From the human T2T-CHM13v2.0 reference genome, Homo sapiens, in assembly GCF_009914755.1 (NCBI RefSeq), contig NC_060946.1: a stretch of DNA of 64,000 nt; one strand, given 5' to 3'. This document shows positions 12,317-49,621 of this stretch, piece by piece (position 1 is the first letter of the stretch; each line of letters opens with the position of its first letter). The position numbers and the translations under genes are program-made. The notes below the pieces were generated by a model. That model worked only from the letters and a program-made list of their open reading frames with translations. It was not told the DNA's origin and did not search any database.

Positions 12317-14208
<1,892 letters not shown>

Positions 14209-36192: not shown

Positions 36193-39772
<3,580 letters not shown>

Positions 39773-42507: not shown

Positions 42508-43015
42508 CTAGATTGGAGGATGCTCGCCCCTCTGCAGCCCGGTCCTTCAGATCCTCAGCAATGCCCAGCTGCTGCTCATGGTATTGTTTAGCTCTCTCCA
42601 AATCCTGCATGCACCTGGCAGCATGGCCTAGTCCAGCATAGGCCCGCATCTCAATAGCCTTCTCCATCAACTCCTGTGCCAGCTCCAGGACATAGTTATG
42701 GTAAGACATGGCCTTGTCAAAGTTCCTCCGGTAGTGATAGGCACTGCCCAGGTTGCTATAAGCCCGGGCCTCTTCTCGCTTGTTCCCCAGGTCCTTGGCT
42801 ATCTTCAGATGCTGCTCATGGCACTGCACAGCATTCTCAAAGTCACCCATGGCAATATACACAGCTCCCATGTTGCCAAGTTCTCGGGCTTCAGAAAGTT
42901 CATCTTTGGATTGCTTGGCAAGAAGAACACACTGTTTGTGACTGGCCAGTGCATTGGGGTAGTCTCCAATGGCTGTGTACACGTGGCCCAGACTGCTCAA
43001 GGCTGATGAAGCTGC
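42508..43015 (-). CDS. TTC28: Internal coding exon (508 nt, phase 0 in, phase 1 out) of tetratricopeptide repeat protein 28, probably exon 6
   Basis: Translates to four 40-aa TPR units (AASSALSSLGHVY.., SEARELGNMGAVY.., EEARAYSNLGSAY.., IEMRAYAGLGHAA..) plus AEGRASSNL. Acceptor ccttttctctccAG|GCA (AG at 43017-43016); donor CTAG|GTAAGA (GT at 42507-42506). Peptide recognised as TTC28; exon number is from memory. Confidence 0.93.
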
Positions 43016-43058
43016 CTGGAGAGAAAAGGATAAAGTGGAGAAATGAAAACACATCAGA
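43016..43058 (-). promoter_or_regulatory. TTC28: 3' splice site: polypyrimidine tract and putative branch point
   Basis: Minus strand reads TTCTGATgtgttttcatttctccactttatccttttctctccAG; yUnAy (CTGAT) puts the branch A at 43054, 39 nt upstream of the exon. Confidence 0.7.
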
Positions 43059-43099
43059 ATGGTTTTGGTATATTTTGGCAGATAAAATTTTACAGGTTG

Positions 43100-44101
43100 C
43101 AAGATGGCCGAATAGGAACAGCTCTAGTCTACAGCTCCCAGCGTGAGTGACGCAGAAGACGGGTGATTTCTGCATTTCCAACTGAGGTACCGGGTTCATC
43201 TCACTGGGGAGTGCCGGACAGTGGGTGCAGCGCACCGTGCATGAGCTGAAGCACGGCGAGGCATTGCCTCACCTGGGAAGCACAAGGGGTCAAGGAATTC
43301 CCTTTCCTAGTCAAAGAAAGGGGTGACAGACGGCACCTGGAAAATCAGGTCACTCCCACCCTAATACTGCACTTTTCCAATGGGCTTAACAAACGGCACA
43401 CCAGGAGATTATATCCCGCACCTGGCTCAGAGGGTCCTATGCCCATGGAGCCTTGCTCATTGCTAGCACAACAGTCTGAGATCAAACTGCAAGGCGGAAG
43501 CGAGGCTGGGGGAGGGGCGCCCATCATTGCCAAGGCTTGAGTAGGTAAACAAAGTGGCCAGGAAGCTCGAACTGGCTGGAGCCCACCACAGTTCAAAGAG
43601 GCCTGCCTGCTTCTGTAGACTCCACCTCTGGGAGCAGGGCACAGACAAATAAAAGACAGCAGTAACCTCTGCAGACTTAAATGTCCCTGTCTGACAGCTT
43701 TGAAGAGAGTAGTGGTTCTCCCAGCACGCAACCTGAGATCTGAGAATGGGCAGACTGCCTCCTCAAGTGGGTCTCTGAACCCCGAGTAGCCTAACTGGGA
43801 GGCACCCTCCAGTAGGGGCGGACTGACACCTCACATGGCAGGGTACTCCTCTGAGACAAAACTTCCAGAGGAACGATCAGGCAGCAGCATTTGCAGTTCA
43901 CCAATATCCACTGTTCTACAGCCACTGCTGCTGATACCCAGGCAAACAGGGTCTGGAGTGGACCTCCAGCAAACTCCAACACACCTGCAGCTGAGGGTCC
44001 TGACTGTTAGAAGGAAAACTAACAAACAGAAAGGACATCCACAACAAAAACCCATCTCCACGTCACCATCATCAAACACCAAAGTAGATAAAACCACAAA
44101 G
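43100..44101. promoter_or_regulatory. L1 5'UTR with sense and antisense promoter regions, YY1 site and retained ~129-bp ZNF93-bound segment (~43847-43977)
   Basis: YY1 motif CAAGATGGCCG at 43100-43110; extra segment between GGGTACTCC and AACACACCTGCAG, which is deleted in L1HS/L1PA2. Confidence 0.75.
43345..43527 (-). CDS. L1 ORF0 homologue (60 aa, prematurely stopped); expression unproven
   Basis: GCA ATG ATG GGC..; MMGAPPPASLPPCSLISDCCASNEQGSMGIGPSEPGAGYNLLVCRLLSPLEKCSIRVGVT*. TGA likely from CpG decay of CGA. Donor-like sites CAG|GTGCGG (43422/43421) and CAG|GTGCCG (43337/43336). Confidence 0.55.
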   Translation of the reverse strand: MMGAPPPASLPPCSLISDCCASNEQGSMGIGPSEPGAGYNLLVCRLLSPLEKCSIRVGVT

Positions 44102-45155
44102 ATGGGGAAAATACAAAGCAGAAAAACCGGAAACTCTAAAAATCAGAGTGCCTCTTCTCCTCCAAAGGAACACAGTTCCTCACCAACAATGGAACAAAGC
44201 TGAATGGAGAACGACTTTGACAAGTTGAGAGAAGAAGGCTTAAAATGATCAATGACGAGTTGAGAGAAGAAGGCTTCAGATGATCAAACTACTCTGAGCT
44301 AAAGGAGGAAGTTCGAACCCATGGCAAAGAAGTTAAAAACCTTGAAAAAAAACTAGACAAATGGCTAACTAGAATAACCAATGCAGAGAAGTCCTTAAAG
44401 GACCTGATGGAGCTGAAAACCATGGCATGAGAACTACGTGATGAATGCACAAGCCTCAGTAGCTGATGCGATCAACTGGAAGAAAGGGTATCAGTGATGG
44501 AAGACGAAATGAATGAAATGAAGTGAGAAGAGAAGTTTAGAGAAAAAAGAATAAAAAGAAATGAACAAAGCCTCCAAGAAATATGGGACTATGTGAAAAG
44601 ACCAAATCTACATCTCATTGGTGTACCTGAAAGTCATGGGGAGAATGGAACCAAGTTGGAAAACACTCTGCAGGGTATTATCCAGGAGAACTTCTCCAAT
44701 CTAGCAAGGCAGGCCAACATTCAAATTCAGGAAATACAGAGAACACCACAAAGATACTCCTCGAGAAGAGCAACGCCAAGACACATAATTGTCAGATTCA
44801 CCAAAGTTGAAATGAAGGAAAAAATGTTAAGAGCAGCCAGAGAGAAAGGTCGGGTTACCCACAAAGGGAAGCCCATCAGACTAACAGCTGATCTCTCGGC
44901 AGAAACTCTACAAGCCAGAAGAGAGTAGGGGCCAATATTCAACATTCTTAAAGAAAAGAATTTTCAACCCAGAATTTCATATCCAGCCAAACTAAGCTTC
45001 ATAAGTGAAGGAGAAATAAAATCCTTTACAGACAAGTAAATGTTGACAGATTTTGTCACCACCAGGCCTGCCCTAAAAGAGCTCCTGAAGGAAGCACTAA
45101 ATATGGAAAGGAACAACTGGTACCAGCCACTGCAAAAACATGCCAAATTGCAAAG
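44102..45155 (+). pseudogene. Disrupted L1 ORF1
   Basis: MGKIQSRKTGNSKNQS.. stops at TGA 44201-44203; 35-bp duplication at 44218-44287; RRM fragment KRPNL..ETLQARRE ends in TAG at 44928. Confidence 0.92.
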
Positions 45156-45216
45156 ACCATCCAGGCTAGGAAGAAACTGCATCAACTAACCAGCAAAATA
45201 ACCAGCTAGCATCATA

Positions 45217-49035
<3,819 letters not shown>

Positions 49036-49621
49036 TCAGAACACATGGACACAGGAAGGGGAACATCACACACCAGGGACTGTTGTGGGTTGTGGGGAGC
49101 GGGGAGGGATAGCATTGGGAGATATACCTAATGCTAAATGACGAGTTAATGGGTGCAGCACACCAACATGGCACATGTATACATATGTAAGGAACCTGCA
49201 CATTGTGCACATGTACCCTAAAACTTAAAGTATAATAATAATAAAATAAAATAAAATAAAATAAAGAACCTGATTAAATTGGGGAATTTTAAAATAAAAA
49301 CAGGAAGCACATCATACTCTTAAAAAAAAAATTTTGCAGGTTGCTTGTAATTATCCAATCCAGTTGCTAATCGTACTTCTATCAGTTTTCCACAGACCTA
49401 CGCAGAATTGATAAAGAACACATCCAAACAGCAAGTTCCTAATAAAAAACAATGGTACTTTAATCAGTAACTTTCTATACCTCATCTCCTAGAAACAAGT
49501 TGTATAACATATGTCATTTTAAGGACTTATTGACATTTCTAACATTAATTATGATATTACATCTCTGTTAATACCTATTAACCTCTGTCATATAGGAAAA
49601 TGTATAAGAAAATGGAAATTA

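What the first reader, a model, noticed from the sequence alone, without database searches (positions are those of the whole stretch)
49237..49344. Fossil L1 3' transduction: two tails, an extra AATAAA, and the TSD only after the second tail
Seen: the L1 end (~49236) is followed by a decayed (TAAAA)n tail to 49265. Then come 56 nt of non-L1 sequence (GAACCTGATTAAATTGGGGAATTTTAAAATAAAAACAGGAAGCACATCATACTCTT, 49266-49321) with AATAAA at 49293-49298, 23 nt before an A10 run. The 3' TSD copy (49328-49344) follows and matches 43084-43100 at 16/17. Foreign sequence inside the TSDs with a properly spaced poly(A) signal is the signature of 3' transduction, and it barcodes the parent element. TTC28 is known as a transduction donor through a different, young intron-1 L1; here it appears to be a recipient.
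Basis: partly seen in the sequence, partly recalled or inferred. Interest (0 to 1): 0.7.

Follow-up and report, generated by a model that had tools for sequence, protein, structure and literature searches.

The report
L1 copy tagging a vanished parent
An old, broken LINE-1 jumping gene inside TTC28 ends in a 61-base piece that matches one spot on chromosome 13 where no LINE-1 now lies, likely the empty seat of its lost parent element; this is a clean example of a well-described process.

Summary
A near-full-length, inactivated L1 (43101-49236, L1PA3-long/L1PA4 class) is followed by a decayed tail, 61 nt of non-L1 DNA (49260-49320) with AATAAA, a short second tail and a 17-nt TSD (16/17). The tag has exactly one other match in the genome, C13:78,640,558-78,640,618 (57/61 identical). 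No L1 lies in 15 kb around it, and no sibling carries the tag. The donor segment starts at an L1 endonuclease-type site (5'-TTCTT/AA, 6/7 to consensus) and ends 22 nt after AATAAA, ahead of a U-rich tract. Best reading (0.88): a 'parentless' 3' transduction, from a source L1 at this chr13 site that was likely never fixed and was lost. That class is published for dogs and primates, and the length is about the human median (63 nt). Main rival: template switch from a cellular RNA (0.07). A side finding: this L1 shares a private 35-bp ORF1 duplication, a stop codon and rare substitutions with an inverted L1 174 kb away, concentrated in about 600 bp, which points to non-allelic gene conversion. Ape genomes would decide the parent question.

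The parts
43084..43100 (+). 5' target-site duplication (17 nt); nicked strand reads 5'-ATTTT/AT (5/7 to the EN consensus)
43101..49236 (+). Near-full-length L1 (lacks about the first 11 nt seen in peers), antisense to TTC28; L1PA3-long/L1PA4 class; ORF1 and ORF2 broken (longest open ORF2 stretch 46842-48683)
43845..43972 (+). 128 extra nt in the 5'UTR relative to the young TTC28 intron-1 L1; matches in size the 129-bp ZNF93-bound segment of L1PA3/L1PA4
   Evidence: PMC5860796 passages
44190..44800 (+). Likely non-allelic gene-conversion tract shared with the inverted L1 at C22:28,795,274-28,801,437: 35-bp duplication (44218-44252), ORF1 stop at 44201-44203, 6 of 9 rare substitutions
49237..49259 (+). 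First tail, decayed to (TAAAA)n; inferred to be the parent's own poly(A) tail
49260..49320 (+). Transduced 61-nt segment, 57/61 identical to C13:78,640,558-78,640,618 (+); its first bases would be the parent's 3' TSD
49293..49298 (+). AATAAA, 22 nt before the last base shared with chr13; chr13 continues with a U-rich tract (GGGTTTTTATTTT) 16 nt further on
49321..49327 (+). Second tail (T + A6), contiguous with the 4 A's that open the TSD
49328..49344 (+). 3' target-site duplication (16/17 to the 5' copy)

Best explanation
This L1 carries 61 nt that match a single L1-free site on chr13, and it is likely a 'parentless' 3' transduction from a source L1 that would have sat at C13:78,640,558 and was likely lost from the human lineage. 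Inferred steps: (1) an L1PA3/4-class element inserted at the chr13 TTTT|AAGAAAG site. (2) Pol II read through its own tail into the 3' TSD and flank and was cleaved and polyadenylated 22 nt after the flank's AATAAA. (3) This RNA was copied by target-primed reverse transcription into the TTC28 intron, giving L1 + tail + tag + tail inside a 17-nt TSD. (4) The daughter was kept and decayed; the parent allele most likely never fixed, so today's genome holds the pre-insertion chr13 allele. Shown directly: the anatomy, the unique chr13 match, the absence of L1 there, the EN-like junction and the poly(A) signal spacing.
For: Unique donor: 2 of 2 matches genome-wide are chr22 and chr13 for a 64-nt query and for a 201-nt chr13 query. 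A 25-nt pattern with up to 3 mismatches gave 6 matches: chr13 (0 mismatches), chr22 (1) and four 3-mismatch hits that reach only 30-36/60 over the tag (the reversed control gave 2). No L1 homology above 30 nt in 15 kb around the donor. The donor start reads 5'-TTCTT/AA on the nicked strand, 6/7 to the consensus TTTTT/AA (consensus quoted in PMC13141329); 831 of 145,098 background positions score this well, and 86 of 638 A-rich starts are preceded by TT. AATAAA to last shared base is 22 nt, with a U-rich tract downstream. Tag divergence 4/61 (95% CI 1.8-15.9%) fits the L1's 5-7% divergence from its peers. Parentless tags are the majority in dogs: 17 of 18 (PMC7980453) and 24 of 27 (PMC13141329). 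A class with no donor L1 within 5 kb is described in apes and macaque (PMC4862182). The human median tag is 63 nt (PMC9311842).
Against: The parent is not seen, so steps 1 and 4 are inferred. The EN-site argument is modest: it rests on one G>T change at 49262; if the junction is 3 nt later the site scores 4/7, and 13.5% of A-rich starts pass the TT test by chance. No sibling shares the tag. The donor lies about 6 kb from a CpG island, on the strand that I recall as the lncRNA RBM26-AS1, so a cellular RNA with this end could exist. The second tail is short, and chr13 has its own A-rich 10-mer at the same place, so internal priming is not excluded. DNA search of the genome is a lower bound by the tool's own statement.
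Confidence: 0.88

Rival explanations
1. Template switch: no L1 ever sat on chr13. L1 reverse transcriptase began on the poly(A) tail of a cellular RNA ending at the chr13 AATAAA (a transcript from the CpG island 6 kb upstream), copied 61 nt, then jumped at the A-rich AAGAAAG onto an L1 RNA tail.
For: No L1 at the donor; no siblings; the donor is downstream of a CpG island whose minus strand carries an exon-1-like ORF (identity as RBM26 with RBM26-AS1 is recalled, and a PWI family search gave no chr13 match); the junction is A-rich on both templates.
Against: The junction falls on an EN-type site (6/7). There are 16 other A[A/T]TAAA hexamers between the island and the tag, so this end is not obviously favoured for an upstream transcript. 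Transduction is common (about 15% of full-length human L1s, as cited in PMC13141329), whereas chimeras of this polarity are much rarer (recalled).
Confidence: 0.07
2. Same transduction, but the parent was fixed and later removed precisely by recombination between its TSDs.
For: It gives the same empty site; precise deletions exist (PMC10531181 passages).
Against: They are very rare: 12 cases among 54,037 Alus in primates and 0.003% in whales. No L1 remnant at the site.
Confidence: 0.02
3. Chr13 is itself a recipient (an orphan transduction), and both copies come from a third locus.
For: An A-rich 10-mer follows the tag on chr13, and a 12/14 direct repeat (L002 1433-1446 and 1568-1581) brackets it.
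Against: That repeat would enclose 51 nt of non-L1 DNA upstream of the tag that chr22 lacks; 7 short direct-repeat families occur in these 321 AT-rich bases; no third locus was found.
Confidence: 0.02
4. Variant of step 2 only: the read-through RNA ran further and was primed internally on chr13's AATATAATAA stretch, which later homogenised to A's.
For: BLAST aligns the chr22 A run to this stretch through to the following TT (66/74).
Against: It needs about 3 changes in 7-10 nt against 1 for a true poly(A) tail; a canonical AATAAA at 22 nt and a U-rich downstream tract point to cleavage here.
Confidence: 0.1

Closest known systems
'Parentless' L1 3' transductions (Halo 2021, PMC7980453; PMC13141329; class 1 source loci of Tica 2016, PMC4862182)
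   Same: Unique tag inside the TSD that maps to a locus with no adjacent L1; explained by a parent that segregates apart from its daughter.
   Different: Those are young, dimorphic insertions whose parents probably still segregate. This one is 5-7% diverged from its peers with both ORFs broken, so its parent is likely extinct in humans.
Reference-genome L1 3' transductions (Hoyt et al., 10.1101/2021.07.12.451456: 183 top-confidence L1 events in CHM13; Halabian 2022, PMC9311842; Pickeral 2000, Goodier 2000 and Szak 2003, seen only as references)
   Same: Two tails, poly(A) signal 10-40 nt before the cleavage site, interchromosomal, length about the 63-nt median.
   Different: No progenitor at the source. 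Whether this event is in Hoyt Table S13 or in Szak 2003 could not be checked.
TTC28 intron-1 hot L1 (Pitkanen 2014, seen only as a reference title)
   Same: Same gene, same strand, transduction involved.
   Different: That is a young element at about C22:29,124,700-29,130,750 lacking the 128-nt 5'UTR segment, and it is a donor. This old element is a recipient with an unrelated tag.
Non-allelic gene conversion between retrotransposon copies (for SINEs in PMC7980453 passages; for L1 recalled)
   Same: A patch of shared private variants between two copies that keep their own TSDs.
   Different: Here between two old full-length L1s 174 kb apart in inverted orientation, and it copied inactivating lesions.

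Membership tests
Parentless L1 3' transduction | L1 3' end followed by an internal A-rich tail | tested here: met
   49237-49259
Parentless L1 3' transduction | Unique non-L1 sequence and second tail inside one TSD pair | tested here: met
   TSD 16/17, the only pair in the window; second tail short (T+A6)
Parentless L1 3' transduction | Poly(A) signal 10-40 nt upstream of the tag's end | tested here: met
   22 nt; range from PMC9311842
Parentless L1 3' transduction | Tag maps to one other locus with no adjacent L1 | tested here: met
Parentless L1 3' transduction | Donor segment begins at an L1 endonuclease site (the parent's TSD) | tested here: inconclusive
   6/7 at the preferred junction, 4/7 if 3 nt later; 86 of 638 A-rich starts pass by chance
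Parentless L1 3' transduction | Parent found at the site in another individual or species | not testable with these tools
   no other primate genome is held
3' transduction with identified progenitor | L1 directly upstream of the source sequence | tested here: not met
   no L1 in C13:78,631,000-78,646,000
Transduction family (several offspring) | Other L1s with the same tag | tested here: not met
   the searches are lower bounds
L1PA3-long / L1PA4 | 129-bp 5'UTR segment lost in L1PA2/L1HS | tested here: met
   128 extra nt at 43845 against the young TTC28 L1; feature from PMC5860796
L1PA3-long / L1PA4 | Assignment to one subfamily by diagnostic sites | tested here: inconclusive
   The 5' part is closer to an L1PA3-labelled neighbour (91.9%) than to L1PA4- (86.7%) or L1PA5-labelled (82.3%) ones; the 3'UTR CCAAC site matches the L1PA4- and L1PA5-labelled ones, not the L1PA3-labelled one (labels from the PMC9396940 supplement). 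No consensus library is held.
Non-allelic gene conversion tract | Private variants shared in a bounded patch, not along the whole element | tested here: met
   6 of 9 inside 44190-44800 against 1 of 37 outside within the first 2.35 kb (Fisher p 6e-5, bounds chosen after seeing the data); overall identity 93.7%, like unrelated peers
Non-allelic gene conversion tract | Flanks not exchanged | tested here: met
   each element keeps its own TSD

The most novel reading that the evidence does not exclude
No parent ever existed on chr13: L1 reverse transcriptase started on the polyadenylated end of a promoter-derived non-coding RNA and switched onto a full-length L1 RNA, producing a perfect mimic of 3' transduction. 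Then some 'parentless' tags would not mark lost source elements at all.
Probability: 0.07. Interest if true: 0.55.

Novelty: new member of a known kind. Interest (0 to 1): 0.3.

Why it matters
On its own it is one more 3' transduction. Its modest value is that it gives a base-precise address for a source L1 that is absent from this human genome, roughly 12-18 million years old by recalled subfamily ages, and that address can be looked up in the complete ape genomes. Collected genome-wide, such tags in old L1s would give a census of source elements that produced lasting offspring but were themselves lost, which bears on whether active full-length L1s are purged. The side finding shows that inactivating lesions can be copied between neighbouring old L1s, so shared private variants do not by themselves prove that two L1s are siblings.

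Tried and rejected
Siblings by tag: none; four weak pattern hits did not extend. Sibling by body: the L1 at C22:28,795,274-28,801,437 shares the ORF1 duplication (40 of 2206 candidates scored) but has no tag, its own TSD, different 5'UTR indels and 3'UTR sites, and 93.7% overall identity; rejected as sibling or parent in favour of gene conversion. It does share 8 exclusive non-CpG substitutions in ORF2, the highest of 21 pairs (others 0-5), so a related source lineage or further conversion tracts is not excluded. Nearest relatives by 5'UTR: the best of 40 scored (of 7125 candidates) are 91-93%; no close relative. 3' ends were fetched for 12 of the 39 relatives; 8 windows held an L1 3' end and none shows the tag in the 220 nt printed after it. 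Chr13 as an orphan copy: rejected. A parent remnant on chr13: none. Confirming the chr13 gene by the PWI family: 0 of 12 matches on C13, so the name RBM26 stays recalled. Old-repeat continuity across the donor junction: no informative match among fetched sequences. Antisense-promoter chimeras for this L1: 0 of 4 TTC28 rows in the PMC9396940 table are this element (coordinate offset checked), and the 3 rows in PMC4908685 are TTC28-AS1 with an L1MC5. Literature for this locus: RBM26 + transduction + LINE-1 gave 0 papers; the listings showed no title or abstract about this element.

Full report
1. Observation. The TSD copies at 43084-43100 and 49328-49344 match 16/17 and are the only 2 such 17-mers in the window at up to 2 mismatches. 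Between them lie an L1 (43101-49236), a (TAAAA)n-like tail, non-L1 DNA with AATAAA at 49293-49298, and T+A6. The L1 lacks about the first 11 nt that peers show. ORF1 has a stop at 44201-44203 and a 35-bp duplication, and ORF2 is in pieces, the longest 46842-48683, so the element is inactive.

2. Source of the tag. A 64-nt query found 2 matches in the 3.1-Gb assembly: itself and C13:78,640,561-78,640,618, same sense, E 3.1e-17. A 201-nt query from the chr13 side found the same 2 places. A 25-nt pattern with up to 3 mismatches gave 6 matches against 2 for the reversed control; the 4 extra ones reach only 30-36 of 60 over the tag. Ungapped, 49260-49320 matches chr13 at 57/61, with differences at 49262, 49281, 49310 and 49314, the last at a CpG. 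Comparing the whole L1 with 15 kb around the donor gave only 7 hits of 16-30 nt at E 0.09-0.32: no L1 and no remnant. The tool states that its DNA search is a lower bound.

3. Anatomy of the donor. The shared segment begins inside a purine run that follows TTTT. On the strand that L1 endonuclease nicks this reads 5'-TTCTT/AA, 6/7 to the consensus TTTTT/AA; 831 of 145,098 background positions score as well, but 86 of 638 A-rich starts also follow TT, and a junction 3 nt later scores 4/7. This favours an old insertion site only modestly. The segment ends 22 nt after AATAAA, and a U-rich tract starts 16 nt further on, the layout of a usable poly(A) site. No convincing TSD-plus-tail brackets the segment on chr13. 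A CpG island lies at 78,633,500-78,635,000 with a 24-codon exon-like ORF on the minus strand. I recall this as RBM26 with RBM26-AS1 on the plus strand; a PWI family search did not confirm it.

4. Subfamily and age. The 5'UTR has 128 nt more than the young TTC28 intron-1 L1, the size of the ZNF93-bound segment of L1PA3/L1PA4 (PMC5860796, passages). Against three neighbours labelled in a published table, the 5' part is closest to the L1PA3-labelled copy and one 3'UTR site agrees with the L1PA4- and L1PA5-labelled copies. Identity over the first 2.35 kb is 92.3-94.3% to 26 of 29 peers (L018 gave 89.8%, and L014 and L036 were dropped at about 70%), and 93.9-94.9% to 6 copies over the 3' body. The tag's 4/61 (CI 1.8-15.9%) agrees with this. 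Ages of about 12-18 million years for L1PA3-4 are recalled.

5. Mechanism. Shown: anatomy, unique donor, empty donor, signal spacing. Inferred: a parent at chr13, read-through and polyadenylation at the flank signal, TPRT into TTC28, and loss of the parent allele. Loss without fixation is preferred to precise deletion, which is very rare (PMC10531181, passages). The template-switch rival cannot be excluded from one genome. It gains from the nearby promoter and the lack of siblings; it loses from the EN-like junction, from the 16 other A[A/T]TAAA hexamers between island and tag and from the frequency of transduction (about 15% of full-length human L1s as cited in PMC13141329). Internal priming on chr13's own A-rich 10-mer is a minor variant.

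6. What is known. 'Parentless' 3' transductions are named and counted in dogs, 17 of 18 (PMC7980453, passages) and 24 of 27 (PMC13141329, passages). Tica et al. report source loci with no donor L1 within 5 kb in 13 macaque, 9 orangutan and 1 chimpanzee events (PMC4862182, passages and section 14). The median human L1 tag is 63 nt (PMC9311842, passages). Hoyt et al. list 183 top-confidence L1 3' transductions in CHM13 (10.1101/2021.07.12.451456, passages); their Table S13 is a preprint supplement that I could not see and may hold this event in a lower bin. Szak 2003, Pickeral 2000 and Goodier 2000 were seen only as references. Searches that found nothing on this locus: (0 papers) and the listings. 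PMC12791003 gave one reference-list passage and PMC12058530 one passage with no mention of transduction. One peer (C4, L046) appears to have the same two-tail layout with about 20 nt between the tails, which fits the view that such ends are common.

7. Side finding. The 35-bp ORF1 duplication is spanned by one other scored copy, at C22:28,800,196-28,800,315 (98%; 40 of 2206 candidates scored). That element is full length, inverted, 174 kb away within TTC28, with its own 17-nt TSD and no tag, and 93.7% identical overall. It shares the duplication, the ORF1 stop and 6 of 9 rare substitutions in 44190-44800, against 1 of 37 elsewhere in the first 2.35 kb (bounds chosen after seeing the data). An active parent is unlikely to pass on a stop and a frameshift in ORF1, so conversion after insertion is the likely cause. 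In the 3' body the three chr22 neighbours form the top three of 21 pairs for exclusive non-CpG substitutions (8, 5, 5 against 0-4). With only 7 sequences and somewhat longer branches in these copies, this is a lead and no more.

8. Verdict. New member of a known kind; interest 0.3.

Noticed in passing
window 44190-44800 and L057 (C22:28,795,274-28,801,437, minus strand): Likely non-allelic gene conversion between two inverted full-length L1s 174 kb apart in TTC28: shared 35-bp duplication, ORF1 stop and 6 of 9 rare substitutions.
   Followed up: yes
window 45350-49236, L057, L062 (C22:28,547,300-28,551,300): The three chr22 neighbours are the top three of 21 pairs for exclusive shared non-CpG substitutions (8, 5, 5 against 0-4), a hint of repeated local conversion; small sample.
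   Followed up: partly
window 43015-43101: The L1 5' end lies 85 nt from the splice acceptor of the TTC28 exon 42508-43015, and its antisense promoter would fire in the gene's direction. It is not among the 4 TTC28 rows in the PMC9396940 table or the 3 TTC28-AS1 rows in the PMC4908685 table.
   Followed up: partly
L046 (C4:59,856,600-59,857,300): A peer L1 has two A tails with about 20 nt of other sequence between them, before a 19-nt TSD-like match: a possible second short transduction.
   Followed up: no
C22:28.54-29.13 Mb: TTC28 holds several full-length old L1s: this one, L038/L062, L063/L064, L065/L066 and L057, plus the young intron-1 element; all fetched ones except L057 lie on the plus strand, antisense to the gene.
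   Followed up: partly
L062 3851-4001: A second L1 3'UTR fragment directly follows the tail of the L1 at C22:28,544,946.
   Followed up: no
L003 2500-4000 (C13:78,633,500-78,635,000): CpG island with a minus-strand exon-1-like ORF about 6.7 kb from the donor site; recalled as the RBM26/RBM26-AS1 promoter, not confirmed.
   Followed up: partly
window 12652-14206 and 36225-38735: Other L1 pieces in the window, 85.6% and 69.4% identical to L057.
   Followed up: no
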